Assembly: GCF_030684315.1 (NCBI RefSeq)
Contig: NC_081383.1
Coordinates: 22,737,942-22,801,941 of the forward strand
Direction: 5' to 3'
Origin: Stegostoma tigrinum
Lineage: Eukaryota
DNA length: 64,000 nucleotides
Numbering within the stretch: position 1 is the stretch's first letter; each line of letters opens with the position of its first letter. Made by a program: the position numbers and the translations under genes. The notes below the pieces were generated by a model that did not search any database, was not told the DNA's origin, and saw nothing but the letters and a program-made list of their open reading frames with translations. This document shows positions 7,851 through 50,811 of this stretch, piece by piece.

Positions 7851-7990
7851 TCAGAGATAATAGGGACTCCAGATGCTGGAGAATCCGAGATAACAATGAT
7901 GAAGGGTGAAGGTCCGAAACATCAGCCTTCCTGCCCCTATGATGTTGCTTGGCCTGCTGTGTCCATCCAGCTCTATACTTTGTTAGTTAA
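7851..7990. mobile_element. PLE terminal-repeat mini-element (family 1), inverted structure, degenerate hammerhead
   Basis: Tail segment joined to inverted tgatgaagggtgaaggtccgaaacatcagc...; exact 9-bp flanking direct repeat gaaactgta (7842-7850, 7991-7999). Confidence 0.8.
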
Positions 7991-9189
7991 GAAACTGTAG
8001 CTTCATTCAAAATTTCACAGCACTCTTACTTTGCTGCTTATAATGCCATTAAGCCATCATCCTTGGCCTTTACAACTTCCACTGATTCCTCAAACCTCAA
8101 TCTGTCCACTCCCTCATTCTACCATACTCTTCCACTTCTTCCACTCCTACTTCACATTTCCCACTATTCCCTTTCCAGCTGTAGTCAACTGAGTGTTTTC
8201 AGCTTTCTCCCTTTATCATTTGTGATAGAGTTTTCATTCATTCCACCCCTGCCCTTTTTCGGACTCTTCTGCCAATTCCCTCTCCCTTGCCTCATCAAGC
8301 GCTCATAAAATCCTCCTGAAATCTGAGACTATGTGCTTAATTCCCCATTAAGTTTGCTTAGCCCTGACCTAGAACTGTGAATGGCCTGGGTCATTTTGCT
8401 AAATTTAAAACACTAAAAAAGTTATCTGAACACAACAGCATGAACCCAGTACAAAAAATGCACATTCCTGATGGTTCATTGATTGTAACAGCATAGAATT
8501 AAAATTTTATTCAAAAAAAGTGATGATTTTTAAAAAAAATTAACACATGAATACAGCAACTGAAAAGCTCAACAATCTGGTTGAACTTTGTCCTTCAGAC
8601 CTCAGTTTAAGCTTCCTCATACTGACAGGAAACAGTTGGGATTTTCTACTAGACAAACAGCCTTGAACTTGAGTTCTGCACCTCTGACCCTGCTAGAATC
8701 CAAAAATACAAGCACTTACTGGCACAATGTTTCTAGCACAGGCTTTCATTTTAACTGTCTTTGTCCCAGATAAATTTCAACCAGGGTCTGACTGTGACAA
8801 AGCAGGTACATGAGTATCGTCTGTTAGACTTTGGATGTTTTCATGCAGCACAGAGAATTGCAGTCTCAGTGAATTAAGATTTTTAATGGGAAATTGATTT
8901 TATTGATTACTCCATTGTGTAAAGTACGGAAAATTAAGTAACTATGTCCAACAACTAAATATTCATCTTTTCCCAGAGACCAACTGCAAAAATTTAAAGA
9001 TGGAAGTACTATTTGGGCATTGGGCTTGATATATTATGGTGTTCGAATTTTCTGCCATTTTACAAAGTAAAAGAACATTTCCTCATAAAAATGTTTTCTC
9101 TCATACTTCTTCACTTTTAGCAACAGTGATCATGAAGTGTTGAGATGCTACTCCATTAATATTCCAACTGCATGTATCTACTTACTTCA

Positions 9190-9506
9190 CCAGGATTCTT
9201 CCAGATTCTCTGGACTCTGGAACAGTTCTTAAAAGCAAGAACTTCCTTCCTCAGATAAGAATATCAAATCTGCATTCAATATTCCAGGTGTGGTCTCACC
9301 AATGCCCTGTATAATTGCAGCAAGTCATCCTTGCTTTTGTAATCAAATCCCCTCACTAGGAAGGCCAATGTACCAGTTACTTCCCTTACCATCTGCTGTG
9401 CTTGTATGCTTACCTTCAATGACTGGTGTACAAGGATGATGAATGGCAGAGCAGATTCAAAGGACCGAATGACCTAATCCTGCTCCCATCTTCCACGTCT
9501 CTATGA
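9190..9506. mobile_element. CR1 LINE fragments in both orientations
   Basis: Minus-strand caatattccaggtgtggtctcaccaatgccctgtataattgcagcaag, followed by plus-strand CR1 tail gaatggcagagcagattcaaaggaccgaatgacctaatcctgctcc. Confidence 0.7.
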
Positions 9507-10030
9507 ATAAGGCCACTTCCTACTCACCAGAGGTCTTCAAGCACCAACAGCAACAGAACTGACAGAATGGAGGACTTTTTTTATTTCTTCTTTACTGTTG
9601 CCAGTCAGTTATTGTTGGCAAAACCAAGCTGACAAAACCTACCCAATGCCCAGCCACTGACATTCGAATATCTTTGTTCCGTGTGTTTGGAAGTGCTATG
9701 GTTTTATATGAGGAGCGTTCTCACAGCAGAGTGTAATCTTTATAACCCAGACCAAATTCCTACATTGTAGAACTGAGAATATTACAGTGATTCAGTGTTA
9801 TCCAGATGTATAAAAATGTCATGAGAACCTACATCAGACTAACGTCAGGATTCCTTGGGAAGATCTAACACAAAACTGGAGATAAAATTGTTCGTATCAA
9901 GCAACTGCAATATCGTCCAGCACACTGCTATCGTCCTCCTCACTGCTGCTTCCTGTTCAATGACAGACATTGCCTTGCTCTGTGAGGTTCCCAGTAACTG
10001 CAGTTGCACGCTCATACATGTAAAATCATT

Positions 10031-10367
10031 ATCATAGAACAATACAGCGCAGAGCAGGCCCTTCGGCCCTCGATGTTGCGCTGACCTGTGAACTAATCTA
10101 AGCCCTTCCCCCTACACTATCCCATCATTATCCATATGCTTATCCAGGGACTGTTTAAATGCCCCTAATGTGGCTGAGTTAACTACATTGGCAGGCAGGG
10201 CGTTCCATGCCCTTACCACTCTGAGTAAAGAACCTGCCTCTGACATCTGTCTTACATCTATCACCCCTCACGTAGCTATGCCCCCTTGTACAAGCTGAAG
10301 TCCTCATCCTCGGAAAAAGACTCTCTCTGTCCACCCTATCTAATCCTCTGATCATCTTGTATGTCTA
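10031..10367 (-). mobile_element. CR1/HER1 LINE 3' end
   Basis: catagaacaatacagcgcagagcaggcccttcggccc tail; ggcagggcgttccatgcccttaccactct (RVVRAWNALP motif on the minus strand). Confidence 0.85.
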
Positions 10368-11094
10368 AAGCAATCAGTTGTGTTGTTATGTTTGAGACAG
10401 ATGTATGAGATAGCTGATAAAGGAAATTTAAGCATTCTTTTAATAGTTATCTCAAAACAATGATGGGAATACACTGTTCCAAAGGGGGAAGAACATGAAA
10501 TTTTGATTGCTAGCACTTACTATTCGAAGTAAAGGGTACTGTTTAGTGTGCAAAATGCAACGTCCTCTAAGGGTACAGTGTGCACATCATGATGAAAATC
10601 AGCTCACAATAGTTGTTTGATGCCAGAGATGCCATCTTGAAGTTGTGCAATCCAGCAAATGCTCTCACTTAACTTTGCTCAGCTGACATGAATTAAACAG
10701 TAGACCAAGCAGCCCATCAATGGCATTGAAAGGGACCATCCACTATACACAGGTCAGTGTTGATTAACTTACTCTGGTTGCTGCTTTGATTCTACAAGTG
10801 TTTAATGCTTTCTATAACTATTAAAAGAAGAAAGTGGATCTGTGTAGGAAATGCTGAAGTAATTCTTCCTTCTTCAATGCTTCCACTCAAATTAGTTGCT
10901 CCAAGTAATGGGGACATTAGTAGCCATTCCTTTGGAGAATGAACAGAAGCCACAGAAAGCAGATCCCTGGAAGACAGAGGAGGATGCGGGAGAAGGAATT
11001 TCAGCACAAGGCCATATTTGCCCTTCTCATATGAACAATTCTAACATCTCAAATGAGGTGGGGAACAATGTATAAGGTATCTTCACTTTTCCTT

Positions 11095-11418
11095 ATTTTT
11101 TAATGGGACATAGGCAAGGCCAACATTTGTTGTTCATCCCTAATTGCCCTTGAATTAAGTGGGCAATCAGAGGATGTTTAGAAATCAACCACATTGCTGT
11201 GGGTCTGGAGTCACATGTGTCAGACCAGATAAGAATAACAAATTTTGTTTCCTAAAGGGCATTAGTGAAACAGATGGATTTCACCATTACTAAGATTAGC
11301 CTTCAACTGCACATTTATTAACTGAATGTAAATTCCATCAGATTCTGTAGTGGTAAGAACACTAGTCTGGGCCTCTAGATTGCTATTCCTTTAACATTAT
11401 CAATAGACCATCCCTCCT
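11095..11418 (-). mobile_element. tRNA-derived SINE with LINE-derived 3' tail (family shared with 11985, 46113, 53496)
   Basis: Body caaccacattgctgtgggtctggagtcacatgt; tail catccctaattgcccttg is complementary to the LINE tail at about 62395-62460. Confidence 0.75.
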
Positions 11419-11984
11419 TCCCACTAAGTGAAGGCTGAAATCTGACACAGCCACTACTGGCAACATCAGAGCTGGCAAAACAACACGTCAGCAGCCAATG
11501 TGTGATGTTCTTTTATGCATCTGCCTCCTTTGAATCTAGAGCTCGAGATATTTCCAACCATTTTGCAGTTGCTGTCCCCTGTTGCATGATCGAGGTCATT
11601 GATGCTTTTTACTCATTGAGAGCTAACTCTGAGGTGCAACCCATGTGTGCGTGTGCAGCATGCATGCAATAAAACTATTCCACTGCACAAAAGGCAACAC
11701 TGCAGAGCAGTGGCCTGCTGAGAGAACAAATCATGCACCACTTAAGTATATGCTGAAGTATGATCTTCTTGTTCATAATTCTTTACACAGATTAAAGTGA
11801 TTCAACACTATACTACTGACTGTGATCAGGCACTTGGTTTTCAGTGTTGGGCATGAAGAGTGGTGTGGCCCCGGAGGGGATTCTGCCACCCCCTGCACTC
11901 TGTCCATATACAGTGGCTGGAAAGGAAGTTGAAGGAGAGAATACTGGAAAAGAAAAGCAACTCAGGCATTCACAAAAGTTTTTT

Positions 11985-12288
11985 GAATTAGCATTTATTA
12001 GGCCAATCCTAATTGCCCAGAAGGTGGTTTAGAGCCAACTACATGGTTGTGGGTGTGGAGTCACATGTAGGCCAGCAGTTTCCTTCGCTAAAGAACATTA
12101 ATGAATTGGATAGAGTTTTCAAACAATTGACAAAGGATTCCTGGCCACCATTAATTCCAGTTTTTTTTAATACTGAATTCACATTCTACCATTTGCTGTG
12201 GTGGGATTCAAACCCTGGGTGTCCTGGACATTACTGGAGTCTCTGGATTAATAGTTTGGTAATAACACCACTAAGCCATTGCCTCCCC
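11985..12288 (-). mobile_element. tRNA-derived SINE, same family
   Basis: Minus-strand head ggggaggcaatggcttagtggtgttatt (A box) and gggtttgaatccc (B box); head nearly matches 46113. Confidence 0.85.
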
Positions 12289-12458
12289 TAATGTTAAAAT
12301 TCAATATATTTTGAGAATTAGCCACTGGATGACCACTATTCGATTGTTATTGGATCTCCACACTTGTAGATAAAGATTAACAGTAATCTCAATTTTTAGA
12401 AAAGTAGTGCAATGAACTGGATGACCTCAATGCCTGATGCTTCAATGTCAGAAAGAAA

Positions 12459-12887
12459 ATAGACCAATAGGATTCTTTGAAACCACAAGATTTTTTGGAG
12501 TGTTGCTCCTTCATCACGTGAACTGGGGGAAAGTGTATGGGCACAGAATTTATGGGCGGAGAAATAATGGCAAGATAATTCCAGGTATTTAAGAGTGTCA
12601 ACACTATTTAACACTTTTGATCACCTTCAAACACTTACTAATTCAGCCCATCAACACACCACTCACACAATTTGTACTTATCTGGCGATACTCTTAATTA
12701 CCTGGAATTATCTTGCCATTATCTCTCTGCCCACAAATTCTGTGCCTGTGTACTTTCCCTCACTTCACCTGATGAGGGAGCAGTGTGCCAAAAAGCATAT
12801 GTTTTCAAATAAACCTGTTGGACTGCAACCTGGTGGTAAGTGACTTCTGACTTTGTCCACCAAAGTCTGACATCAGCATCTCTACAT
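12459..12887. mobile_element. PLE-like terminal repeat, family 3, inverted pair, each arm with a degenerate hammerhead
   Basis: 12459-12599 is the reverse complement of about 12687-12826; the ORF track shows near-identical peptides on opposite strands; cores ctgatgagggagcagtgtgccaaaaag (+, 12769) and gtgatgaaggagcaacactccaaaaa (-, from 12517). Confidence 0.7.
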
Positions 12888-14570: not shown

Positions 14571-14748
14571 GATCAGAGATAATGGGAACTGCAGATGCTG
14601 GAGAATCCAAGATAACCAAGTGTGAAGCTGGATGAACACAGCAGGCCAAGCAGCATCTGATGAAGGGTCTAGGCCCGAAACGTCAGCTTTTGTGCTCCTG
14701 AGATGCTGCTTGGCCTGCTGTGTTCATCCAGTTTCACACTTGGTTATC
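14571..14748. mobile_element. PLE terminal-repeat mini-element (family 1), fold-back
   Basis: Arms 14611-14658 and 14701-14748 are complementary at 47/48; 40-nt tail 14571-14610; flanking repeat agagatttggt (14556-14566, 14749-14759). Confidence 0.9.
14657..14684 (+). ncRNA. Minimal type I hammerhead ribozyme motif
   Basis: CUGAUGA-A-GGGU(CUAG)GCCC-GAAA-CGUC: both conserved core boxes, 4-bp stem II, palindromic ACGU in place of stem III, GUC cleavage triplet. Confidence 0.75.
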
Positions 14749-20146: not shown

Positions 20147-20437
20147 TTGTCACAGGAATTTGGTCTCCCTGAAAGAACTATAAAACACCCCCATAATAAT
20201 ACAAACTGCTTCATGTGCAACATATTTAGCACAACTTCCAACTCAACCTCCCTTATATTTGAGTATTCCTGCCATAGCAATCCATTTTTTCAAACCCAGC
20301 TGAGTTTCCATTATCAGGCTTTATTTTTGTCATTCCTGGAGCAAATAAAAACAAACCATATTCTTGACTTGTAAGCACTTGCAATGATATATTTGCCAAC
20401 TAAAGTATGTGTGATGAGATTTTTTTAGTCTAATAAA

Positions 20438-20778
20438 ACAGAATCCCTATAGTGTGGAGGCAGATCATTTGGCCCATCGAGTCCACATTGACCCTCAAAA
20501 GAACATACCACCTAGACCCATCCCTCTAACCTCACATTTCCCATGGCTAATCCATCTTGCCTATGCATTACTAGACATAATGCACAAATTAGCATGATCA
20601 ATCCACCTAACCTGCACATCTTTGGACTGTGGGAGGAAACTGGAGCACCTGAAGGAAACCCATGCAGACACGGGGAGAATGTACAAACTCCATGCAGACA
20701 GTCGTCCGAAACTGGAATCAAACCTGAGTCCCTGGTGCTGTGAGAGTACAGTGCTTACCAGTGAGCCACCACGCCACC
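20438..20778 (-). mobile_element. HE1-type V-SINE
   Basis: Same tail, V-domain and head as 4778-5063. Confidence 0.9.
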
Positions 20779-21885: not shown

Positions 21886-22098
21886 GATAACCAAGTGTGA
21901 AGCTGGATGAACACAGCAGGCCAAGCAGCATCTCAGGAGCACAAAAGCTGACGTTTCGGGCCTAGACCGATGAAGGATCTAGACCCGAAACGTCAGCTTT
22001 TGTGCTCCTGAGATGCTGCTTGGCCTGCTGTGTTCATCCAGCTTCACACTTGGTTATGTTGGATTCTCCAGCATCTGCAGTTCCCATTATCTCTGATC
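21886..22098. mobile_element. PLE terminal-repeat mini-element (family 1), 81-bp palindrome
   Basis: Arms 21886-21966 and 21978-22058 with 2 mismatches; 40-nt tail 22059-22098; TSD actatttaaa(a/g)cag (21872-21885, 22099-22112). Confidence 0.92.
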
Positions 22099-23594
22099 AC
22101 TATTTAAAGCAGGGTTCTTTTCTATTATTGCTCCTCTGTTGGAATTTTTAAGAGTTGTATCATATTTTGAGGGTGCATTTAACTTATGTCAGAAAACCAG
22201 CCCTCCAACAGGTGCACTGAATATCAAAACCCTAAAGATATTAAACATTTGTGAACCCAAAATAGGGTTTTCATAAACTGAACAGCATCATGGATAAACT
22301 TCTAAAAAGGAATATATGTAAGAAAATAACATTTTTAGAATGTAGATAAAACAAATATCAATCTGACTCAAAACCTGCCAATTTGGGAAGATTCAGATTT
22401 ATCTGATTTTATTGATGATGCATTATTTTAGATTATAAAGGTCACGGCAGATTAGGTGGTGTGGTAGGTTTCGACATTATCATTTCTGCTTTTGACCTGG
22501 CTTTACACATTGATGGAATGAATATCCTTTCTGACAGCTAGCTATGAGGCTCCTAAGGGAACAGTGGCAGAGATCCATCCCTTCTGAGATATCTTCTCAA
22601 GATATGTATAAAGAGGAAATCTCTCTATACAACTGTTTGTACTGTAGGGACAAGCTGTAAATTACCAGCCTCCAGACTGAACTTAAATGTTCTCACAGAT
22701 GCTGCAAATGACAGTTAACACCGTATCTATTTAAAAATCAGCCAGCAATCTCACTCACATAAACCACAAGGATGGCTGCTGTTCTGAACAGAAACATCAT
22801 ACTGATGCAGTGAAAGGGCTCTTCTGTGATTAGAATTATAGCATATTGCTGCTGGAAAACAAGATGGACCAATATTAATATTTAACTCAGGGTACTCTCT
22901 ATTTCGAACAGTTCGATGTTCAAACAGTAGAAAAATGTTTGTATCAAATCCAAGTCAGGAGTGATGTTCCCCTAAGTTCAATGAAAATAAAACAACAAAA
23001 AACTGCAACACCACAGTTTCAAATCTTTGAACAGTGGTCGCAGCATGTTAACTATTATTGTAAACCAAACACAACATGCCTTGTTCAGAATCATAAATTG
23101 GAATCCAAATTACTGATGCTCCGTCAGTGGAAATACACCATTATGTCAACTGGCTCCAGGCACCTTTTAAAAAATAGTGAGTAGGACCGAGATACAGAAG
23201 TTCCACTTCCATTTGTGGCTGATCCAGCTTTTGCCAGTGGGGGCAGGGCATGAATCACAGCTGCAAGAAACAAATTCAGCAAGGCTCCTTGTTCTGGGAA
23301 TACTGTGCGGTACAATGGGGTTAGAATTGAACAAGAAGGACGCCACTGCGGGTGATAGCTTAAGGTTAATGAGCTGAGGTTAGTAAGATATCATGAGAAA
23401 ACGTACCGGGGTCGCGGTGATAAACGCTCCAAAAATCTCACCACAAATCGCACTTATCAAAAAAATGGAAGATTCAGCTCTTTGAGATTTCCTCTCCTTC
23501 TTCTTCTACATTTCAGAGAATAAGGCACAATCGCCACCACCCCAGGAATGAGTCTGCTGTCCTCTTCTGCAGAGGAAGAATTATATTCTTCTTT

Positions 23595-24557: not shown

Positions 24558-24708
24558 AGATAACATAGTGTGGAGCAGGATGAACACAGCAGGCCAAGCA
24601 GCATCTTAGGAGCACAAAAGCTCCTGAGATGCTGCTTTGCCTGCTGCGTTCATCCAGCTCCACACTTTGTTATCTCGGATTCTCCAGCATCTGCAGTTCC
24701 CATTATCT
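24558..24708. mobile_element. PLE terminal-repeat mini-element (family 1), hairpin lacking the hammerhead core
   Basis: Arms 24558-24613 and 24620-24675, loop acaaaa, tail to 24708; flanking repeat ctatgaactaaa (24543-24554, 24707-24718). Confidence 0.88.
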
Positions 24709-31353: not shown

Positions 31354-31461
31354 CCCAAAACATCAGCTTTTTTGTTCCTCTGATGCTGCTTGGCCACTGT
31401 GTACATCGAGCTCTACACATTGTTATCTAAGATTCTCCAGCATTGGCAGTTCCCACTATCT
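31354..31461 (+). mobile_element. Decayed PLE terminal repeat (family 1)
   Basis: cccaaaacatcagc...gatgctgcttggcc...gttatctaagattctccagcattggcagttcccactatct matches 21984-22092. Confidence 0.8.
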
Positions 31462-32307
31462 ATCTCTCTCTCACATTTTATACTGCATGGTTAAAGCAAC
31501 TCCCATTTTCTAAGATTTTTTGAAGCTTCAAAAGTTAACTTGTAGGCCACATTTTATGACAGCTGTTGGAATGAATCAACTACTTAGCCACATCTACATG
31601 GAAATTAGAAGAGGGAGGAAAAGACTGTGTCACTATTGCACTGGTTCTCCAATTTGTACTGGTTTTCAGCACAACCCTTGTGCAAGTACAGGACTGACAA
31701 ATTAACCCACATGTACAAAAGTAACCAGATTTCAATGCCAAGTAACAAGGAAGAACAACAATGTAGGGTGCAGCCAACAGTCTTATACCAAAATCTACCC
31801 TCTAAATGCATCAGTTTGAATGAAATTACTTTCAAACGTTTATAAACACAGATGATAAAAATCTCCTTTAAATGGAAATGGAAGATTTCAGCACACAAAG
31901 TTCTTGCAATATTCTTATTATAATGATGATACTAAATTCCATTTACATTTTTAAAAAAAACTAAGACACATAACGTAATTGGTTTAATACACCATAGTTT
32001 ATCATTAAAATAGTGGATAAAGGATTTTCATAAACATGTGTCAAATATTTCTATACTAATAGTTGAACAGTGTATTTCCTCAGCCTTAGAGTATGGACTC
32101 CATATATCATTTGTACCTCAGATTTAATTAAATTAGCCACATGTTCAATTAAAAGTAATTGACTTCCCTCTGACAGACTCATCTGATGTAATATGGAAAA
32201 ATCGCTTAAATTTTGCCTTAAACGTATTTATAGGTAGTGGTCTTCAGGAAAGGAATGTGGACATATAGTCTGTCAAAGTCAACAGTGAAAGAAGACTGAA
32301 AAACTTC

Positions 32308-32523: not shown

Positions 32524-32751
32524 ATCATAAAAAAAGCTTTACCAGGTGATGCCAAACAGCCCACATGTTGGCAAAAAAATTGCAAACCTCATTCAGAGAT
32601 GTTTAAAGACGCCTGATGGGACCAGGGGTTGGAATCATCCTGTTGTAGATCATAGATAATGGGAACTGCAGATGCTGGAGAATCCAAGATAATAAAGTGT
32701 GAAGCTGGATGAACACAGCAGGCCAAGCAGCATCTCAGGAGCACAAAAGCT

Positions 32752-32779
32752 GACGTTTCGGGCCTAGACCCTTCATCAG
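32752..32779 (-). ncRNA. Minimal type I hammerhead ribozyme motif in the PLE terminal repeat
   Basis: Minus strand reads CUGAUGA-A-GGGU(CUAG)GCCC-GAAA-CGUC, identical to 14657-14684 and sense to the PLE ORF. Confidence 0.8.
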
Positions 32780-33007
32780 AGAGGCGGATGGGGTGAGGGT
32801 TCTGGAATAAATAGGGAGAGAGGGGGAGGCGGACCGAAGATGGAGAGAAAAGAAGATAGTGGAGAGGAGAGTATAGGTGGGGAGGGAGGGAGGGAATAGG
32901 TCAGTCCAGGGAAGTCAGACAGGTCAAGGAGGTGGGATGAGGTTAGTAGGTAGGAAATGGAGGTGCAGCTTGGGGTGGGCGGAAGGGATGGTGAGAGGAA
33001 GAACAGG

Positions 33008-33518
33008 TTAGGGAGGCAGAGACAGGCTGGGCTGGTTTGGGGATGCAGTGGGGGAAGGGGAGATTTTGAAGCTGGTGAAGTCCACATTGATACCATTGGG
33101 CTGCAGGGTTCCCAAGCGGAATATGAGTTGCTGTTCCTGCAACCTTCGGGTGGCATCATTGTGGCACTGCAGGAGGCCCATGATGGACATGTCATCTAAG
33201 GAATGGGAGGGGGAGTTGAAATGGTTCGCGAATGGGAGGTGCAGTTGTTTATTGCGAACCGAGCGGAGGTGTTCTGCAAAGCGGTCCCCAAGCCTCCGCT
33301 TGGTTTCCCCAATGTAGAGGAGGCTACACCGGGTACAATGGATACAGTATACCACATTGGCAGATGTGCAGGTGAGCCTCTGCTTAATATGGAAAGTGAT
33401 CTTGGGGCCTGGGATGGGGGTGAGGGAGGAGGTGCGGGGACAAGTGTAGCACTTCCTGCGGTTGCAGGGGAAGGTGTCGGATGTGGTGGGGTTGGAGGGC
33501 AGTGTGGAGCGAACAAGC
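33008..33518 (-). pseudogene. PLE GIY-YIG endonuclease domain, uninterrupted but 5'-truncated
   Basis: CNRRKCYTC linker, NVVYCIHCTRCSLLYIGETKRRLGDRFAEH, ANHFN, RRLQEQQLIFRLGTLQPNGIN; the ATG at 33529 lies in the TSD, so it is not a native start. Confidence 0.92.
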
Positions 33519-34108
33519 TTGTAGATCATTGCAGCTTTCCTGCATCTGACAGCAGGGATTTCTTCATTATATAACAGTACTGACAGCCCTCACCATTAAC
33601 ATATGCGAGTATAATAACTGTCCAGGCATTATATCTCATTTCTGCTCAAATTATGATTTTTTTAAAATCACAACACAATTTTGTTAAAATATTCAATTCA
33701 ACAACCTAGGCACATGTAGGCGAAGCAACAAAAAGACTTGAGGAAAAGCCACTGGCACCTCAATAAGTCAATAATGTCTGATTGAAGAACTGAATCTTTT
33801 CATTTACTCAAATTATAATGACTTATTTGTTGCAATACATTGCATTCTGCACAACATAGAGCGTAAAATCGATGCAGCTTTTTTCCTTAAGATATAAATC
33901 AAAGACTTGGGAGTGACATTGGCTTAGTTCTTACTGAGTCCTAGTAAAGTGCCAAATTTCATTTATCCAAAGAACTTATAATTGTCAGAAAACATCCTGA
34001 GGTAATTTGGCCAAGTATTACGATAATTCCTTAAGCATTTGCCAAGTGTGATAGCTTAACAAGGCACAAATGTTGCCAAATAGTTTTCAAACAATACACC
34101 CTTTTTGA

Positions 34109-34238
34109 TGTCTAGCAAAAGTGAAGACAAATTGTGATATTGTCGCAGGCAACCATCAATGTTATTTTTTAAAAAAACTAACAAACATTGATAGCTGCCT
34201 GTGACAATATCATAATTTGTCTTCACCTTTGCTCGACA
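34109..34238. repeat. Isolated inverted repeat, 55-bp arms with 20-nt spacer
   Basis: 34109-34163 vs reverse complement of 34184-34238: 6 mismatches, no gaps. Confidence 0.9.
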
Positions 34239-37769: not shown

Positions 37770-37920
37770 TTGGGTTGGCCAAGGGAAATTGCCCCATAGT
37801 GTTCAGGGATCTGTAGATTAAGTGGGTTTATAAGGTATGGGTTTGGGTGGGATGTTCTGTGGGTTGGTGTGGGCTTGTTGGACTGAAGAGCCTGTTTCCA
37901 CACTGTAAAGGTCCTGTGAT
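37770..37920 (+). mobile_element. 3' half of an HE1-type SINE
   Basis: ggaaattgccccatagtgttcagggat...gggtgggatg...gcctgtttccacactgta. Confidence 0.8.
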
Positions 37921-38067
37921 CCACGCCAAAGATAGAATTGTTCTAAAGCTCTGTACTGGCTATTTCCTTGGAGACTATTACTCTATTTTAGTTGATTTAT
38001 AAATGTTATTTATGAAGTGACTTTACAGAATAAATTGAAATCCTGGTTAAAATTAAGATGCCACCAT

Positions 38068-38362
38068 GAGGAGCATGATGGCCAGGAGTTGGCAATGCTG
38101 CCACACAGTACCAAGCATACTGGTTTGTTTCCAGCTTTGGGTGACTGTCTGTGTGGAGTTTGCACATTCTTCCCAGGCCTGTTGGGTTTCTGCTAGCTGT
38201 CCTGGTTTCCTCCCACAGTCCAACGATGTGCAGTTTATGTGGATTAGCCATGGTAAATATGGGAATAGTGTTGGGGGTTTGGGAGCCAGGAGGATGCTTT
38301 TCGGAGTGTCAGTGCATACTCAATGGGCTGAAAGACCTCTTTTCACACTGCAGAGGTTCGAT
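38068..38362 (+). mobile_element. HE1-type V-SINE, older copy
   Basis: gggtgactgtctgtgtggagtttgcacattct...ggtttcctcccacagtcc V-domain. Confidence 0.85.
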
Positions 38363-41300
38363 GAATTACTGGGAGAGCCAATGTAAGTGAGCAGAGGGTC
38401 ACTCTTCCCATTTCATTTAAGGTGGCATTATAGGGCCAGCCTGCAAAAATCCTTGGTGCTGCTCTGACAATAGAGTGCAACAAAAGAGGCACTGCTATTC
38501 TGTACTCCTGGCCATGCCCCTATATCCAGGTCAGTTAATTCCTGTGCTCTAGCCAATGCCCAATTGATCCCTGTTATTGCTGCACACCTGGCTAATTGAT
38601 ATTGATTCAGCCTTGAGGAAGAACTTGGGTGAAGTACTACCAAAAAACCAGGTCTGCCTTAAAAAGCCTTTAGTTTCTGAATGAATTGCATCACCTGATG
38701 TTCAAAGCCATCAGCTTTGTCCAAATATAACGCAATTTTTTTGCCAAATGTTCAAACTATAATAATGCAAGATATGTCAAAGCACCTCTGTTGTAAAGAG
38801 GGCTGCATCATATGCATATTGCGTCACATTAAATGTAATGACATATCGTTGCTCTTGTTCCCAGGCAGGAGGCCAATGCTGCTTCACCAAGCTGGCTACA
38901 GAACAATCTAGGAAATGACATGAAACAGAACATTTGTCTGGCTTCAACAAGTTGAAGTTGACAATCAATGTGTCTATTGTGTTTGCTGTGCTTTCTCCTA
39001 AATCTGATTATATCTGAATTTCCTGCCACTTCAAACGAAACGCAAAGAGTAATCCTCTGCTCACTTACATTAGCACTCCCATTTTAATGGGGGTACTTTA
39101 TATTTTACATTGACCTCTCGTAGACCTACAGATGTTTTGTTGATAAATCATTCTGGCACTTATACCCCTGTTATAAGTCCAAATTAGTTTATAAGCAGGC
39201 CTGAAGAAGAGTCCTGATTTGATGAAAAACAGTTCCCTCCACCATATCAAATCATAAACCCTTCATTTAAATCTGGCCAGTGACTAAAATATTTTTAATC
39301 CCTAAATTTATAGTGCCTCCATTTATCTCCATTGATTGCTTAACTGAAAAAGTTGTAACAAGTGGCCTGCATGTAAGATTAGATTGAATGGTAGGATGTT
39401 TCCTTTTTTTTGTATGTACATTTGATTCATTCCTAACGCTTTGTACAAGAACCAGCAGAGTCAATAACACAGAACCATGTTAAACATTAATGCAAATACT
39501 GTGCACAGGTTTCTTAAATTACCTGATGCAAAATCTTTCTAATGCGTTGTGAAATAATCTATTCCTAAGGGTTACAATCCCCACAGAGATGGATAACTTT
39601 CTAAACGAAATGTGATCTTCCTGCTTAGAGCTGAAAGGAAAACTTGACAAAATTTCACTTTTTCAGACTTTTATTATGACAAGAAACCTGGGCGCAACAA
39701 ACTCCCAATTGTGTTGGCAACATACACTTTAAATCACCAACCAGAACTTCTCCCTTTTACCTTCAACACAATGAAATCTCACTCACTTCACAATTATACT
39801 GTCCCTCACATAGAATTCAATTCACCCCAAACCAGTACATAAGTTTTCTAGGCTCCCAAGATTTACATCTCTTCTTTTCTTTTCCCAACCTGGCAACTTT
39901 TAATCCCAGAACTGTCTTTCAGGGTGAGGATTTTTTCTTGAAGAATTATCCTCCTGTATGAGCTAGGCAAATCTACCAGACTCTGCTCAAATACTCCTAA
40001 ATTATATCGTTTCCATTTGAGTATGAACCACCTATGATACCCCATGGTGATCCATAGCAACTTCTGACCTCCAGTTAGTCCCTCTGTCCTGGATCCTGGT
40101 ACACTGCTTGTGGCTGGGAGCTTTCAGAGATATCTTAGGCCCTTCCCCGCTAAACTTCCACCTCCATGGTAAAAAGGAATCTCACGGTTTTTGTATCCAG
40201 CTAGAAAAACTGACAAATCACCGCCAAGACTACAAATTTCTTTTACCTTGTCAGTAAGTGGATTATTTAAAGTTGAACTATTTTTATCCTAAGAATTGCA
40301 ATATGTCCCAAGGACTTTAGAGACTAGCAGTATAACACCATTGCTGCTGCCATTCTTTCCAAGTGTGATACCTTACACCTTCTTTCCAACTAACAAACTG
40401 GGTTACCCTTAAATCTTTACCAATCACTTCACCCAAGCCTGTTGTTAGGCAGACTTCAGATCATATGACATTCTTCAGTTTATCTCAAGTTAAAGATGAA
40501 AACCCTACCAAAAAATTATAAAGAACACATGAATTCCACACTAAAGCTGCAACAGTGCTATTTCATTTCAAATGGAAAATTCATTAATACCTGCAATCTA
40601 TTCCTTGCAGGAATAAAAGATATTGAGCTTTAATCAATGCAAAATGCCATCTTCCAACATTAAAGAGGCTGGGTTGTTCATTAGAACTTGTTTTCCAGAA
40701 TGCATTTCTGCACAGAGCACAGACAAATATTTATAGCTGACAATAAACTCCCCTCAAAAATGAAATTCTGTGAAGCATTTTGAAATGCACCAGAATAAAT
40801 ATACAGACTGGAATTAAACACCACAAGCTAACTGAAACATTTATCTAAGTTTTAGCATTTCATTTCCAGTCTTTAATATTAATATAACTGCACACCTTGC
40901 TTAATTTAATTTGCTTTTAGAAGTTATTAAGCTTGAAACTAGTCACATGTTATAGGTTTGATTCAGAAAGTGCTTTAAGACAAATTTTGGCTGACTGTGT
41001 GGTAATAATATTACCTGGTGGAAACAGAGAAGCAATTTTGTTTATTAAAAAAGGTGCAAAGAAGTACAACAGCACAAAGACAATTCTAGCTGCTGAGTCA
41101 GGATATTGCCCATTCCTTAGGAGAGTAGGGGAGACAAAACTGAATGATTTACAATCATACAGGGCAATCAAAGAATAAGCTAAAGAAACTTGAGAAAGTT
41201 ACAAAGGAGGCAAGTGACCTAACACATAGGAGCTCATATACAATACATTTTGGACTATCTTTCAGCACTGTTCCATCATATGGAAAATATAAAGCTACCA

Positions 41301-42164: not shown

Positions 42165-45100
42165 CCACTACGTACAGAACCTACTGAGATTGAATAAAGA
42201 CATTTGGATGAGGGGACCGAATATATGGTAGCTAAACTGGCCAATGACAACAATGAAAGTAAGTTGTCAAAGGAGATAGAGTCTGCCAAGGGATAAACAG
42301 TCTAAATGAAAGGGCAAACATGGGTGAACTTGCCATTTTGGCAGGAAGAATAGAAAAGCAGTGTACAGTTTAAATGGAGAGGAATTGCAGGAGTCACTGG
42401 TCCTGAGAAATTCGAGAGATCATGATACACGATTCAGAAGAGGTTAAAATGTGGGTACAGCAAGTGATTAGGAAGGTAAGTGAAATGTCATCATTTATCA
42501 CAATGGGAATGGAATAAAAAGTAAGGAAATTTTGGGACAGGACACTGATGAAACCAGATCTGAAGTATTGAATTCAGTTTTGGCGTCCTTATTCAAAAGA
42601 AAATATAATTGCTTTAGAAGCAGTACACAGAAGCTTTACTCAATTCATTTCTGGGATAGAAGGCTTAAATCTCCGAGAAAGAAAAATAAAAGGTAATGTT
42701 ATGAAACTTCAAGAAAATTGGATAGGGCGGATGCCCGCAAAATGTTTTTGTTCATGGGCATGATTAAAGCAAGGGAACATAGGGCCATACAGCATGGAAA
42801 CAGACTCTTCAGTCTAACCAGTCCATGCCGAACATAATCCCAGGCAAAACTCATCCCACCTGCCTGTTCCTGGCCCATATCACTCCAAACCTTTCCTGTT
42901 CATAAATCCATCCAAATGTCTTTTAAACATTGTGATTGTACCCACATCCACCACTTAATCAGGAAATTCATTCCACATGCGAACCATCCTCTGTGTGTAA
43001 AAAAAAATTGTCTCATGTCTTTTTTAAATCTCCCTCCTCTCATCTTAAAAATGTGTCCCCTAGCTTTGAAATTCTCCGTCTCAGGGAAAAGCCAACTATC
43101 ATCAATTCTATCTATACCTGTCATCATTTTATAAACTTCCATCAGGTCACTTCTCAACCTCCTACACTCCAGTGAAAAAAAATCACCCATGTTTTCCAGC
43201 CTTACCTTATAACTCGAACCTTCCATGCCCAGCAAAATGCTGGTATACCTCTTCTGAACTCTCTCCAGCATGACAATATCCTTTCTATAATTGTGCAACC
43301 AGAACTGGACATATTATTTCATAAGAAGCATCACCAGTGCCCTGTACAACCTCAACATAACATTCCAACTCCTATACTCAAAGGATAGAGCAATGAAGGC
43401 AAGTATGCTAAATGCCTTTTTAACCATCTTGTCTATATGCGACAAAACTTTAAAGGATTATGTACCTTCACCCATAGGTCCCTCTGTTCTACAATACTAC
43501 CCAAGGCCCTACCCTTGTTCGTTATACCAAAATGCAATACCTCACATTTATCTAGATTGAACTCATTCTGTATTTTTCATCCCATTGACCCATTTGATCA
43601 AGGTCCTTTGTAACCTTAGAAATACTTCTTCACTGTCTACATGCCACCAATTTTGTTGTCATCCGCATACTTACTAACTATGCTTCCTATATTCTCATCC
43701 AAATCATTTATGTAAATGGAAAACAGAAGACGGCCCAGAACCAATCCCTGTGGAATACCACTAATCACAGGCCTCCAGTCCAAAAAGCAACCCTTCACCA
43801 ATACTCTCCATCTCCTGCTATTAAGCCAATTATGTATCCAATTGGCAAGCTCACCCTGAATCCCATGTGACTTAATTTTATTAATTAGTCTACCATATGG
43901 AACCTTGTCAAATGTTTTACTAAAATACAAATAAACAACGTCAACTGTGCTGCCATCATCAATCTTTTTGGTAACTTCCTCAAAAAACTCAGTTTGTGAG
44001 GCATGATTTTCCTTGCACAAGTCCATGCTGACTATCGTCTAACAATTTACCCACAACCAAAGTCAGACTCACGGGTCTATAGTTCCCCGTTTTCTCCTTA
44101 CAAACTTTCTTAAACAAAGGTACAACATTAAACACCCTCCAGTCATCAGTCACCTCACCCATAGTTATAGATGATGCAAATATTTCTGCAAGGCATCTCG
44201 CAATTTCCTCCCTTACTTCCCGCAACATTCTAGGATACATTGGTTCAGGTCTTGGAGATTTATCCACCTTTATATTTCCTAAGGCCTCCCAAACTGTTTT
44301 TGAAACATCGAAGTTTATTTCTCTGCCTTCTCTAGACTCCATTTCTTTCTCTACAGTAAAAACTAACACGAAATATTCACTTAGTATCTATCCCATCTCC
44401 TGGAGAACAACACAAAGACGATCTCCTTGATCTTTAAGAGGCCCCACCTTCTCTGTGATTACCCTCTTGTTCTTAATGTATTTGTAAAATCTCTTTGGAC
44501 TATCCTTAACCTTATCTGCCAATGCTACCTCATATCCCCTCTTTGCCTTCCTGATTTCCCTCTTAAGAATGCCACTATACTCATTATATTTGTTAACAGA
44601 TTTGATTGAACCAAGTTGTCCATATAAAAAAAATTCTTTTATTTTTGACTGGAACCTCAAAATCTTTATTCATCCATTGTTCCTTAATCTTACCAACCTT
44701 ATCCTTCACTCTAACAGGTACACACTGCCTCTAAACTCTGGTCATCACTGCCTCAAATGCCTCCCAATTGTCAGATATCCTTTTACCTGTGAACAGTCTA
44801 CTCCAATCAACTTGCAAAAGTTCTCGTCTCACACCAATAAAATTTGCCTTACTCCAATTAAAAACCTTAACTTTTATGGAAGGCTTATCCTTTTCTAATA
44901 GTTTATAATTAATAGGTCTACCTTTAAAGACAGAAATGAAGAGAATATTTTTCTTTGAAGATCATAAAGTGTGAAAATGTCTTCCCCAGAAGGTACAGGA
45001 GACTGGATTGGTAAATTTATTCAAGACTGATTTAGACAGATTTTTGAGAGGAAGAGAGTGAAGGATTATGGGGGTACAGACAGAAAACTGGAGCTGAAAC

Positions 45101-45650: not shown

Positions 45651-45764
45651 TTCATTGGAACGCAAATATTGTTTACAACATATTTTTTGTCATCAATTAC
45701 AAATTTTGTAAAGAAGAAAAGCAAATTAAAACTTTTAATTTTGATTTTGAAACATACTTCCAAT

Positions 45765-46047: not shown

Positions 46048-46112
46048 TCCCAAAGAGTCTAAAATACACTGCATCACAAAGCAAAGATTGACCAAAGGAA
46101 CTCCATCTTACA

Positions 46113-48777
46113 GGGGAGGCAATGGACTAGTGGTATTATCGCTAGATCATTAATCCAGAAACTCAACTAATGTTTGGGAATCCAGGTTCAAATCCTGTCA
46201 TGGCAGATGGCAGAACATGAATTCAATAAAAAAGTCTACTGATGACCATGAAATCATTCTTAATCATTGGAAAACCATATCTGGTTTACTGATGTCCTTC
46301 AGGGAAGGAAATCTGTCATCCTCATCTATTTGGGTGTACACGCGGCTCCAGATCCACAATGGTTAACTCTTAACTGCCCTCTGAAATGACCCAGCAAGCC
46401 ACTCAGTAGCATCAATCTGACTTCTGACCCATGGCTTCAGATTAAAAATGGAAAGAAAACCTCTTGCTGGTTATCACATTTTGTCCTCCCTCAGCTGATG
46501 AATCAGTACTGCTCCAATTTGAATAATACTTGGATGAAGCACTGAGGATGGCAGTGGTGCAAAATGTACTCTGGGTGGGGGATTTCATTGTCCACTACCA
46601 AGAGTGGCTCAGCAGCAACACTACTGATGGAGCTGGTCGGGTTCTAAAGGATACAGCCGCTATACTGGATCTACGGCAGGTGGCGAGGCAACCACAAGAG
46701 GGAAAAACACAGTTGAATTTGTCCCTACCAATCTGCCGGCTGCAGATGTATCTGCCCATGACAATATTGGTGAGAGTGACTACCACACAATCCTTGTGGA
46801 GACAAAGTCCTGTCTTCACTTTGAGAATGCCATCCATTGTGTTGTGTGGCACTACCAGTATGCTAAATGAGTAGACTTTGAAAAGATCTAGCAACTCAGG
46901 ACTAGGCATCTCATGGCCAGTCATTTCCCTTGCTCAATCATTACAATCAACCCAGGGTATCACCCCTGGCTCAACAGAGAGTGCAAGAAGGCATATCAGG
47001 AGCAGCACAAGGCATATCTAAAAATGAGGAGTCAACCTGGTGAAGCTATCAAAAAGGAATACCTGTATTCCAAATAGTATTGACAGCAGGTCAGAGACAG
47101 AGCTAAACAATTCAGTTACCAACGGATCAGATCTAAGCTCTGCAGTCCTGCCACATTCAGTCGTGAATGGCGGTGGACAATTAAGCAACTCATTAGAGGA
47201 GGAGGTGGTTCCACAAATGTCTCCATCCTCAATAATGAAACAGCCGAATACATCAGAGCAAAAGATAAGACAGAAGCATTCGCAGCAATCCTCAGCCAAA
47301 AGTGTCAAGTGGATGATCCATCTCAACCCTCTGCAGTCTTCCCCAGCATCACACAATATCATTGTCAACCAATCTGATTCACTCCACGTGACACCAATAA
47401 ATGGTTTGAAGCATTGGATACTGCAAAAGGTATGGGTCCTGACAACATTCCCACAATAGTACTGAAGACCTGCTGAAGAACTTGCTGCTCCCTTAGTCAA
47501 TCTCTTCCTGTACAGTTACTACACTGGCATCAATCCAAAATTGTGGACAATTGCCCAGGTTTACCTGTGCACAAAATGCAGGACAAATGCAACCTATCCA
47601 ATTACCACCCCATCATTCTACTCTCAATCATCAAAGTACTAGAAGATGCCATCAATCACATTGCTGAGCAGATGCTATCAATCAGCACCTGCTCAGCATA
47701 AACCTGCTCAGTAACGCCCAGTTTAGATTCTGCCAGGGCCACTCAGCTCCTGACCTCACCGCAGCCTTGGTTCAAACATGGACAAAACAGCTGAATTTCA
47801 GAGTGAGATAACAGCGACAGCCGTAGAGTCATATAGTACAGGAAACACATCCATTGGTCCAACCAGTCCATGCCAAACATAATCCCAAACTAAACTAGTA
47901 GCACTTGGCCATTATCCCTCCAGAGATTTCTAATTCATGTGCTTATCTAAAAGTCTTTTAAATGTTGTAACTGCACTTGGATCTACCACATCCTCTGGAA
48001 GTTCATTTCACACATGAATGAACATGCATTTGTGTAAAAAAATTGCCCCTCGTGTCTTTTTTAAATCTTTCTCCTCTCACTTTAAAAAAAATGCCCCCTT
48101 GTCTCGAAATCCCCCACCTTTGGAAAACCTGCCGTTCACCTTATCTGTACCCTTAACCATTTCATAAGCCTCTAGAAGGTCAGCTCTCAACCTCCTACGC
48201 TCCAGTGAAAAACAAAGCCCTTGATATCAAGGCCACACTCAACCGACTATGGCATCAAACAGCTCTGGCATAACTGGAATCAATGGGTATCATGGGGTGA
48301 ACCCTGCTGGTTGGAGTCACACCTAGCACATAGGAAGATGGTTGTGATTGTTGGAGGTCAGTCATCTTAGTTCACAACATCTGTGCAAGAGTTCCTCAGG
48401 GTAGTGTCTTAGGACCAAACATCTCCAGCTGCTTCATCAATGACCTTCCCTCCATTATAAGGTCAGACATGGGGATGTTCGCTGATGACTGCACAGTATT
48501 CAACACCATTCCCAACAACTCAGATACAAAAGCAGTTCATATTCAAATGCATCAAGATATGGACAATATCCACATTTGGGCTGACAAGTGAGAATTAACA
48601 TGCAAGCTACACCAATGCCAGGCAATGACCATCTCCAATAAGAGGCAATCTAACCACAACCCTTGACATTCAATGGTGTTACCATCGCTGAATCCCCAAC
48701 AAGCAAAATTCTTGGGGTTACCATTGACCAGAAACAAATCAACTCGCCGCGCAAACACAGTGGCCACAAGAGCAGGT
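46113..48777 (+). mobile_element. CR1/L2-group LINE ORF2 (AP endonuclease + RT) preceded by a tRNA-derived SINE-like head; 3'-truncated
   Basis: A box tggactagtgg 46123-46133, B box ggttcaaatcc 46185-46195; APE motif NVLWVGDFIVHYQEWL; RT VPQGSVLGP...FINDLPSIIRSDMGMFADD at about 48390-48490; ends at NTVATRAG. Confidence 0.88.
47825..48212 (-). mobile_element. CR1/HER1 3' fragment inserted into the 46113 LINE
   Basis: Closely similar to 42778-43180; host RT reads through acagcc...aaagcccttgatatcaaggcc (ALDIKA). Confidence 0.88.
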
Positions 48778-50716
48778 GAACGCAGGGCTGTGAACCAAAC
48801 TTATTCTATAACAGAACAAGGATTTGCAATAAAGGCATGCTTGGGGACTACTGTTTTTATTGGTGCATGTTACATTTTTTAACCAAATATTGGACAATGA
48901 CTATAAACTTCTTCTGTACTTTTCAACTGAAATCATGCACTTCCTTCACAACATCTTTGCTCTGGCAATGTAGCTGAAAGAAAATGTTGCTTTGTTTTGC
49001 AAGTGCATTGAAACTTCACCCACTATACTCTAAGGGTAAATCAGTGTTACATCACCTGGCTTAAACCCAGTGCTTTGTGGCAATTAGCCAGCTCCCACAT
49101 ACCCTACCAAAACAGCACACTAATGAAAAAATGGTCATTGGATAAAGCAGTTTATGTTACACTGCATTTCTACACCAATGGTTGTCTTGTTTCAGAAACA
49201 GCAACCCTGTTTGAATAGATTACCAAACAATTAAGTATCTGCTTTACACACGTGCCCTTTGCATAACTTCACTGCCTCTGACAGTTCAAACCACTTCATG
49301 CAATCTTTTTCATCTTCATGAAGTTTGCTTGAAAAAATGAAACCATGCCAGGCATATACAATATTCTGATGTTTACAGATTCACTTTAAATGCTCCAAAA
49401 TTATTGTTCATGCAGTAATTTAAAAATGGTGTGTGTGCTTCATAGTATGCACAACATACTAAATTCACTAAATTATTTCCTAATATCTTAAATCATGTAG
49501 AAAATTAAAAGAAAACTGTGTGCATGGGAGGTCTAGCCTTGTTTAAACTTAATTGAATAAATCAGAAAACTCCAGATTTTTATAGCAAGAGCAGCAGCTA
49601 ACGCAGTCTCCTATCATGCTTTCATAAAGAAACAAGGAATAACTGAAGGGCGCTTAAGCCCTATTTTTCAGCACATTTCAAAGTGCTTTCCTTTACTTAT
49701 TCTCTTCGAGATTTTTTTCAATACACTAAAAATAGATATTGTGTGTAAATCAAAGCATTGCAGATATAAAACAAATCAGCCTCACTCCTACAAAAAGGCC
49801 AGTTGAAAATTATAATTATGCTGACATTTGTAATTCTTACAACACATAATTGCAGTGGTTTCAGCAAAACTGCAGCGCTTTAATTTCTCATCACTAATAT
49901 TTCTTCAGTTCATATACACACCCTGACACTTTTCAATGATAAAGGCCTCTTCTAAATGTTATCTACAACTGCACAACTTTTTTTCACAGTTTTATATCCT
50001 ACATAATTTTGGCATAATTTGAAACAAATCTATTACTGAGGCACCTCCACAAGATGTCCATTTACAATTCACTTTGTGGTCTTCTTTGACAACAACTGGC
50101 CTACTTTTACATCACCTTTGCCTGCACTTCTCTTTAATTTGTAATAATTCTCTGATGAGCAACATGATTGAACAGCTCTGGAACTTCAATTAAACACACT
50201 GCATCACCATGCCCACAGCATGTTCGCAGAGTTTGTGAAGGTTTCAAGCATGATATATCACTGCTAAATCCATGGCAAGTATCTTATCCATTTAATCACC
50301 TTGAATTGTGGGGAAAACAGAGGCTTGGATGTGCTGCAAATTCTATGTAATTCATACCAACATCTCCATAATTGTTTTTAATGCTTTTCTGTGCTCAGGT
50401 GGCAAGATAGTAATTTAAATGGACAATCAGATGTCTCTTATTTCTCTGACACAACCTTGTCAAAACACATTGCTTCATTTTTGTCAGTCATTTATTTGTG
50501 GAAGATTACAGAAAAGCTTTCACTAATATTCATGCCTGATGTTCCTTTTCAAGAGGCCTCATTTGAAATGCTGCACACTTCTAATCTTTCCCAATGTCTT
50601 ATCGCACATTTCCATTGCACTTCACCTAATTAACAGTTAATATTAACATTCTGAAAACTATTCAGCAACATTGTAGAAATGTAACATGGCCTAATCTGAC
50701 TGACTTGCATGTAAGG

Positions 50717-50811
50717 GATAACACAGCGTGGAGCTGGAGGAGAACAGCAGGCCATGAGGCATCAGAGGAGCAGGAAAGTTGATGTTTCGGGTTGGGACCC
50801 TTCTTCAGAAA
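50717..50811 (-). mobile_element. Solo PLE terminal repeat (family 1 variant) with hammerhead-like core
   Basis: Minus strand CUGAAGA-A-GGGU(CCCA)ACCC-GAAA-CAUC (50781-50808); flanking repeat tgcatgtaa (50706-50714, 50812-50820). Confidence 0.8.

What the first reader, a model, noticed from the sequence alone, without database searches (positions are those of the whole stretch)
7851..50811. Family of tiny, TSD-flanked, hammerhead-bearing Penelope-terminus elements with a fixed breakpoint and ~40-nt tail
Seen: seven copies of one terminal repeat (7851, 14571, 21886, 24558, 31354, 32654, 50717). Six have their own 9-14 bp flanking direct repeat, so they are independent insertions. Only 32654 carries coding sequence. 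In the fold-back copies (14571, 21886, 24558) the second arm stops at the same motif (gataac/gttatc), and the inverted segment of 7851 stops close to it. This leaves an unpaired tail, exactly 40 nt at 14571-14610 and 22059-22098. The solo copy at 50717 starts at that motif too. Established: PLEs carry minimal hammerheads in their pseudo-LTRs, form inverted 5' structures and have a short 3' tail. Inference: these 95-215 bp units are either abortive PLE integrations or a non-autonomous ribozyme-bearing mini-retroelement family mobilised in trans. The constant breakpoint probably marks a transcript end or a second priming site. The components are known; the density and stereotyped geometry are what stand out.
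Basis: partly seen in the sequence, partly recalled or inferred. Interest (0 to 1): 0.7.

Follow-up and report, generated by a model that had tools for sequence, protein, structure and literature searches.

The report
Penelope run-off stubs, twin-primed insertions
These short repeats are end pieces of a very abundant protein-coding Penelope-like jumping gene; they are likely one-off insertions in which both cut DNA strands primed copying of one RNA at two fixed sites and the copying likely ran off the RNA's front end, so they are a known kind of scar that is mainly useful as a record of how such elements insert.

Summary
All seven copies are real and six have target-site duplications (TSDs); only three keep a whole hammerhead core. 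They belong to a large RT + GIY-YIG Penelope-like family (1093-aa ORF found). The window's density is ordinary: 196 loci in 1.3 Mb sampled elsewhere.

The 'fixed breakpoint' and the tail end are the two known PLE reverse-transcription start sites (about +65 and +100 after the GUC). 76 of 78 fold-backs pair one of each, whether 140 bp or several kb long. Junctions are almost all unique. The 14571 junction recurs 38 times but with either arm tailed and in several subfamilies, so these minis do not self-replicate.

Inner ends pile up at -27 to -36, about 30 nt behind a conserved TATTTAT, at an Inr/TCT-like motif. Both arms of a fold-back share the short or long class (72 of 76). Best reading: twin priming on one RNA, with run-off at the transcription start (inferred; no usable RNA data).

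The architecture is published. I found no paper with the run-off reading, but this scan noted it before on other DNA, including this genome.

The parts
7851..7990 (.). Tail-only inversion: inverted arm +57..+102 (7851-7896), forward arm -26..+62 (7897-7985); older subfamily
   Evidence: TSD 7842-7850/7991-7999
14571..14747 (.). Fold-back: tailed inverted arm +17..+104 (14571-14658), forward arm -28..+64 (14656-14748) with an intact minimal hammerhead core; arms joined through a short microhomology
   Evidence: TSD 14555-14569/14748-14762
14657..14684 (+). Minimal hammerhead core (CUGAUGA, stem II, GAAAC, GUC)
   Evidence: no Rfam hammerhead hit; activity untested
21886..22099 (.). Fold-back: inverted arm -18..+65, tailed forward arm -25..+104
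   Evidence: TSD 21873-21886/22100-22113
24558..24707 (.). Fold-back without hammerhead core: inverted arm +1..+65, tailed forward arm +10..+102
   Evidence: TSD 24544-24557/24708-24721
31354..31463 (+). Old solo tailed arm -10..+100, no TSD found
32654..33518 (-). 5'-truncated long-class copy: linker CX4CX2C motif, GIY-YIG end of the ORF, pyrimidine-rich 3' region with TATTTAT, hammerhead and tail
   Evidence: TSD 32643-32653/33519-33529
33011..33517 (-). Open frame with the GIY-YIG endonuclease (last 169 aa of the element's ORF)
   Evidence: PF01541, E 1.3e-4
32807..32813 (-). TATA-like TATTTAT at -61, 30 nt before the predicted transcription start
   Evidence: sequence; position conserved at -61/-62 in 72 of 90 body-linked arms; promoter function inferred
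50717..50811 (-). Solo short arm from about -31 (the A of the older subfamily's Inr-like motif, shared with the TSD) to +64; intact core
   Evidence: TSD 50706-50716/50812-50822

Best explanation
The seven repeats are the terminal pseudo-LTR of an autonomous RT + GIY-YIG Penelope-like element, and the short ones are likely dead-end insertions made when both nicked target strands primed reverse transcription on one element RNA at two fixed internal sites and the enzyme likely ran off the RNA's 5' end at the transcription start. Steps. (1) Shown: an autonomous parent of about 3.7 kb with this terminus. (2) Shown: staggered target cleavage, TSD mode 14 bp. (3) Shown as geometry: outer ends at about +65 and +100, one of each per fold-back; inferred from PMC11167929 that these are RT start sites. 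(4) Inferred: both cDNAs come from one RNA, the +100 primer either stopping at the +65 primer (tail-only inversion, as at 7851) or displacing it (full fold-back). (5) Shown: inner ends pile up at -27..-36, 30 nt behind TATTTAT; inferred to be the transcription start. (6) Inferred: the two cDNA ends are joined by microhomology, often with trimming; when one primer is lost a solo stub remains. (7) Inferred, weakest step: long copies that pass -31 come from another template class, either read-through tandem RNA or a hammerhead-made circle.
For: Parent: natural copy L285 has a 1093-aa ORF from its first Met, with RT and GIY-YIG Pfam hits (E 2.4e-5 and 0.0035, both under the curated cut-offs), the same terminus at both ends, an inverted 5' arm and a 13-bp TSD. 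End pairing: 74 of 77 fold-backs and 76 of 78 with a full-length reference pair a +65 arm with a +100 arm, and this includes the kb-long ones. TSDs: 58 of 71 fold-back clusters, 20 of them 14 bp. Not self-copying: in 23 of 74 pairs the tailed arm is 10 nt or more shorter at its inner end, so neither arm contains the other. One template: with inner ends classed at -40, 53 pairs are short/short, 19 long/long and 4 mixed, against 30 mixed expected if independent (Fisher P 8e-14); the TSD-bearing subset gives 45/17/2. Pile-up: 86 of 181 arms at risk end at -22..-36 (3.2% per nt) versus 4 of 95 at -37..-60 (0.18% per nt); for arms at 90% identity or more, 35 of 78 versus 1 of 43. Scripted on 121 core-bearing arms, 47 of the 51 lacking the upstream TATTTAT end at -27..-36. 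In the first 100 of 81,206 genome-wide matches, 27 leave the template at -27..-33 and none at -34..-72 (counted by eye). Like-filtered ends number 354 at -29 versus 37 at -15. TATTTAT is exact at -61/-62 in 72 of 90 body-linked arms across subfamilies, followed by CCCTCTC, CCTTTTC or CCATTTC; their fit to TCT and Inr motifs and the 30-nt spacing rule are recalled. Jumps from the -29..-33 end into +175 or +420 of the RNA occur (L222, L284). pLTR promoters are published for D. virilis (PMC2377424) and proposed, with TATA and Inr, for A. vaga (PMC3846280).
Against: There is no direct RNA evidence for the start site. The cap-copy test is not decisive: G before -29 in 85 of 100 versus 27 of 37 at the control site (Fisher P 0.13), though above the 59% background (P 2e-8). 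Short/long concordance would also arise if a leading RT stalled and blocked the trailing one. 84 of 265 non-window arms end inside +70..-21, which needs trimming or early drop-off as an extra assumption. The full-length copies looked at start at varied points (-698 to about +88) and not at -31, so a second template class must be invoked. Arm ends come from BLAST and are uncertain by a few bases. The D. virilis promoter is TATA-less and internal (PMC2377424), unlike the one inferred here. PMC3846280 prefers self-priming for the inverted structure.
Confidence: 0.7

Rival explanations
1. Same twin-primed abortive insertions, but the inner pile-up is an RT stall or drop-off at the 5' edge of the hammerhead or in the pyrimidine run, not an RNA end.
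For: The pile-up abuts the first core base. A stalled leading RT would also give short/short concordance. The cap-G excess is not significantly above control.
Against: The stops lie just past the last paired base of the predicted hairpin around the core (the region folds no better than shuffles, z 0.59). C-runs of the same kind at -37..-60 give almost no stops. The position tracks TATTTAT across subfamilies whose pyrimidine runs differ.
Confidence: 0.17
2. The minis are a non-autonomous, ribozyme-bearing family (SINE- or retrozyme-like) copied in trans from mini masters.
For: 126 of 196 sampled loci are 260 bp or less. The 14571 junction recurs exactly 38 times. Tailed solo stubs could in principle serve the +65 start.
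Against: 72 distinct inner-end pairs among 77 fold-backs. Of 30 loci with the 14571 junction, the tail is on the inverted arm in 20, the forward arm in 7, both in 1 and neither in 2, with many subfamily variants. 38 matches against 81,206 intact cores. The stubs lack the region downstream of the start sites that the Anolis enzyme needs (PMC11167929) and lack the TATA-like box. 4 of 7 window copies have no whole core.
Confidence: 0.06
3. Fold-backs arise by self-priming (snap-back of a cDNA or of an antisense RNA), as proposed in PMC3846280.
For: Junctions are often palindromic or microhomologous. Self-copying predicts concordant arms.
Against: Self-copying needs one arm to contain the other. 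That fails in 23 of 74 pairs by 10 nt or more and in 14 by 20 nt or more, including 7851 and 14571. It gives no reason for a stop at +65, which is also the commonest solo end (70 of 122 solos).
Confidence: 0.07

Closest known systems
Insertion unit of EN+ Penelope-like elements: pseudo-LTR, adjacent inverted 5'-truncated copy, one-sided 30-40 bp tail, TSD (Pen2a_Av, PMC3846280; PMC8557442; passages read)
   Same: Inverted pLTR 37 bp shorter than the direct one, one-sided tail, TSD, putative TATA and Inr in the pLTR, partial tandems.
   Different: Here most insertions are only the terminus (126 of 196 loci at 260 bp or less), TSDs are longer (mode 14 bp), and the inner ends pile up at one site.
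PAc, Poseidon of Anolis carolinensis (PMC11167929; parts 1-2 of 4 read)
   Same: Two internal RT start sites bounding the tail, both target strands cut and extended, a hammerhead upstream of the start sites, a template that continues into the ORF.
   Different: This family has the CX2-5CxxC linker motif that Penelope/Poseidon lacks (Neptune/Nematis type), and its ORF starts after the tail. The parts I read report neither a strict one-site-per-strand pairing nor a fixed inner end.
Minimal type I hammerheads of metazoan PLEs (PMC4209133; parts 1-2 of 4 read)
   Same: Minimal core, no real stem III with a palindromic ACGU, very short stem I, mostly single dispersed copies, some in opposite-strand pairs.
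   Different: Cleavage was not tested here, and there is no clear pile-up of ends at the GUC site.
Animal non-LTR retrozymes (PMC7229834; passages read)
   Same: Small, hammerhead-bearing, non-coding, proposed to be moved by PLEs.
   Different: Retrozymes are 170-400 nt tandem repeats with canonical hammerheads. The window copies are single or head-to-head with minimal or broken cores. The tandem deletion arrays at L281 and L282 look more like retrozymes.
L1 twin priming and retroviral strong-stop DNA (both recalled, no call)
   Same: Two target-strand primers on one RNA give an inversion; copying starts near the RNA 5' end and runs off.
   Different: Here both priming sites are fixed and internal and the two arms overlap the same sequence.

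Membership tests
EN+ Penelope-like element | Single ORF with RT and C-terminal GIY-YIG endonuclease linked to this terminus | tested here: met
   1093-aa ORF in L285/L105; RVT_1 E 2.4e-5 and GIY-YIG E 0.0035, under the curated cut-offs; window fragment GIY-YIG E 1.3e-4, at the cut-off
EN+ Penelope-like element | Partial-tandem pseudo-LTRs, inverted 5' copy, one-sided 30-40 nt tail, TSD | tested here: met
EN+ Penelope-like element | [quoted passage not shown] | tested here: met
   VVYCIHCTRCSLLYIG with downstream histidines, read by eye; definition
Neptune/Nematis clade | CX2-5CxxC motif in the RT-EN linker | tested here: met
   CNRRKCYTC; definition from PMC8557442
Neptune/Nematis clade | RT phylogeny placing it in Neptune rather than Nematis | not tested
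   no named reference PLE proteins were fetched
Minimal PLE hammerhead | CUGANGA, stem II, GAAA, NUH core | tested here: met
   3 of 7 window copies; 81,206 exact cores genome-wide under a one-base upstream filter; Rfam gave no hammerhead hit
Minimal PLE hammerhead | Self-cleavage | not testable with these tools
   the genomic proxy was inconclusive: 573 ends at +1 versus 374 at -13, both confounded by microhomology
Non-autonomous mini-element (SINE/retrozyme-like) | Copies descend from mini masters: shared junction with fixed tail side and shared variants | tested here: not met
Non-LTR retrozyme | Head-to-tail tandem units of 170-400 nt with canonical hammerhead | tested here: not met
   window copies are single or inverted
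Non-LTR retrozyme | Abundant circular RNA | not testable with these tools
   only contig data were available

The most novel reading that the evidence does not exclude
The family has two template states that the genome records separately. The linear, capped transcript, primed about 95 and 133 nt from its 5' end, yields only strong-stop-like stubs. A hammerhead-cleaved, circularised monomer has no -31 end and yields long, more-than-unit and multimeric copies. The minimal hammerhead would then be the switch from mRNA to a transposition-competent circle, one enzyme complex would prime both target strands on one RNA at two programmed sites, and the 420- and 654-nt tandem deletion arrays would be PLE-derived proto-retrozymes.
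Probability: 0.3. Interest if true: 0.7.

Novelty: new member of a known kind. Interest (0 to 1): 0.4.

Why it matters
The PLE transposition cycle is described as undefined, including the origin of the inverted pLTR and the role of the hammerhead (PMC8557442, PMC11167929). This family leaves on the order of half a million footprints (rough extrapolation from 196 loci in 1.3 Mb to 3.2 Gb), with 100%-identical young copies and long open frames. Two regularities give sharp predictions for the existing in vitro system: strict +65/+100 pairing with shared short/long class, and a stop 30 nt behind a TATA-like box. The stubs are not a new class of element, and such stubs should be annotated as PLE ends, not as SINEs or MITEs.

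Tried and rejected
Rfam scan: no hammerhead family matched; only chance-level hairpin hits at 34105-34232. RVT_1 search of the genome returned only top-scoring RT frames that I took for LINEs and did not use. RNA evidence: no RNA holder listed; laying contigs of X1 and X3 could not show starts or ends. The pattern had a gap one base too long, caught only 601 indel variants and was not used. Cap-G test: suggestive only (85 of 100 versus 27 of 37, P 0.13). Ribozyme cut-site test: 8 of 230 arms end at -1..+2, no more per base than at -2..-21; 573 versus 374 genome-wide; no flanks were obtained, so it stays inconclusive. Folding of the terminus and of the start-site region was no better than shuffles (z 0.59 and 0.29). 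PDB sequence search: no hit. One pair of identical junctions in block B036 shares flanking DNA and looks like a local duplication. The first concordance count used a 1.4-kb reference that could miss mixed pairs; it was redone with a full natural copy and held. Host gene: 7 of 9 window frames had no Pfam hit and the other 2 are RT relics. Ten requested stretches did not exist, so 26 blocks were sampled, all from large contigs at round-number positions. Paper searches that found no description of the run-off or twin-priming reading for PLEs: (open-access library only). No supplements were read; Fig. S2 of PMC11167929 may bear on 5' ends.

Full report
Coordinates: +1 is the first base after the hammerhead GUC on the sense strand; the core starts at -27.

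Observation. The seven copies are at the stated places. Six have 9-15 bp TSDs; 31354 has none. The TSD finder called 86 of 203 loci and 2 of 203 shifted controls. A whole hammerhead core is present in 14571, 32654 and 50717 only, and Rfam does not recognise it. The window is G000:C38:22737942-22801941 in a 3.2-Gb genome. That it is a shark is my recall plus earlier scan notes; no call names the organism.

Parent element. The 32654 copy carries a GIY-YIG frame. A search with an N-terminal piece of the ORF gave long open frames. Natural copy L285 has a 1093-aa ORF with RT and GIY-YIG hits, the same terminus at both ends, a long inverted 5' arm ending at +66, a main arm ending at +102 and a 13-bp TSD. 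It has the CX2-5CxxC linker motif that PMC8557442 assigns to Neptune/Nematis; no tree was built. The monomer is about 3.7 kb. Past +102 the element continues into its 5' UTR and ORF, so neither outer end is a transcript end. All 40 scored matches to the ORF start were 100% identical, so the family is young.

Abundance. In 26 arbitrarily placed 50-kb blocks there are 196 loci, 126 of them 260 bp or less. The window (109 per Mb) is not enriched over the sample (151 per Mb). An exact 31-base core occurs 81,206 times under a one-base upstream filter.

Outer ends. Of 276 arms, nearly all end near +65 or +100. Fold-backs pair one of each in 74 of 77 cases and 76 of 78 with a full-length reference; one exception is a mis-binned tail-only inversion. 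The rule holds for kb-long insertions, so the minis are the short end of one process. PMC11167929 (parts 1-2 of 4 read) shows that a lizard PLE cuts and extends both strands and starts reverse transcription at two internal sites bounding the tail. PMC3846280 (passages) describes the inverted pLTR that is 37 bp shorter and the one-sided tail.

Do the minis replicate? There are 72 distinct inner-end pairs among 77 fold-backs. The 14571 junction occurs exactly 38 times. In the 30 loci cut, the tail is on the inverted arm in 20, the forward arm in 7, both in 1 and neither in 2, with many subfamily variants. This is recurrent microhomology joining, not descent from a mini master.

Inner ends. 86 of 181 arms at risk end at -22..-36, against 4 of 95 at -37..-60. 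Among 121 core-bearing arms, 47 of the 51 without the upstream box end at -27..-36. In the first 100 genome-wide matches, all from the start of contig C1, 27 stop at -27..-33 and none at -34..-72 (counted by eye; the filter drops some truncated copies). Like-filtered ends number 354 at -29 and 37 at -15. TATTTAT sits at -61/-62 in 72 of 90 body-linked arms across old and young subfamilies, followed by motifs that fit Inr or TCT consensus at -31/-32 (consensus and spacing recalled). PLE promoters in the pLTR are published (PMC2377424, parts 2-3 of 4 read), though that one is TATA-less. Some cDNAs jump from this end into +175 or +420 of the RNA. The cap-copy test is suggestive but not significant against its control (85 of 100 versus 27 of 37, P 0.13; background 59%). 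No clear pile-up was found at the ribozyme cut site. RNA data were contigs only.

One template or two. In 23 of 74 fold-backs neither arm contains the other, by 10 nt or more, which excludes snap-back self-copying for those. Yet the two arms share their class: 53 short/short, 19 long/long and 4 mixed, against 30 expected by chance (P 8e-14); the non-nested subset gives 16, 7 and 1. The simplest reading is two target-primed cDNAs on one RNA whose 5' end sets the class. A leading enzyme that stalls and blocks the trailing one fits too, so this test does not by itself separate run-off from stalling; the position of the stop does that.

Long copies. Full-length copies begin at varied points upstream of, or inside, the terminus and not at -31, so they need a template without that end: read-through tandem RNA, or the hammerhead-made circle proposed in PMC4209133 (parts 1-2 of 4 read). 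Tandem arrays of internally deleted units fit rolling copying. One has 420-nt units about 11.8 times ending at +99, one has 654-nt units about 8.7 times, and one has about 1.8 units with a 12-bp TSD. The two long arrays have no clear TSD and may have grown at the DNA level. These units keep 200-320 nt downstream of the tail and are the better candidates for true non-autonomous forms (compare PMC7229834, passages).

Verdict. Real, a new member of a known kind, and mostly explained. Abortive twin-primed insertion is about 0.9 likely, run-off at the transcription start about 0.7, the circle switch about 0.3. Eight paper searches found no statement of the run-off or twin-priming reading for PLEs. 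This scan's earlier notes already hold both readings on other DNA; I reached them before looking, and those notes are not independent support.

Noticed in passing
window 12461-12860: A fold-back of a different repeat with a degraded CTGATGA..AAAGC motif; about ten related places in the sampled blocks, two of them head-to-head pairs. Likely a second PLE family with the same geometry.
   Followed up: partly
L281+L286 (G000:C6:41052879-41057830); L282 (G000:C4:126925912-126931599); L283; L284: Near-identical tandem arrays of internally deleted units (420 nt, 654 nt, about 584 nt; one unit joins +420 to -33) that keep the hammerhead and the region after the tail; candidate retrozyme-like non-autonomous forms.
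   Followed up: partly
window 34105-34232: Near-perfect AT-rich hairpin of about 125 bp that draws below-threshold miRNA hits in Rfam; unrelated to the PLE; MITE-like or a small inverted duplication.
   Followed up: no
window 42900-44430 and 58864-61265 (minus strand): Decayed RT-bearing relics (Pfam RVT_1 at 43640-44038 and 59876-60241); by recall CR1-like LINE and Gypsy-like LTR retrotransposon.
   Followed up: no
window 1092-1570, 4778-5051, 20420-20740, 37840-38364: Several dispersed repeats at 73-83% identity, SINE-like by appearance.
   Followed up: no
L105 / L285 ORF, N-terminal third: Tandem peptide repeat (DGTPPTVDA-like) whose copy number varies between copies of the element.
   Followed up: no
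element terminus +60..+65 and +93..+98: Both RT start regions end in the same hexamer TTATCT, a candidate recognition or priming motif.
   Followed up: no
block B036 (L039), 38543-39525: Two fold-backs with the same junction 800 bp apart in opposite orientation share flanking DNA: a local inverted duplication.
   Followed up: yes
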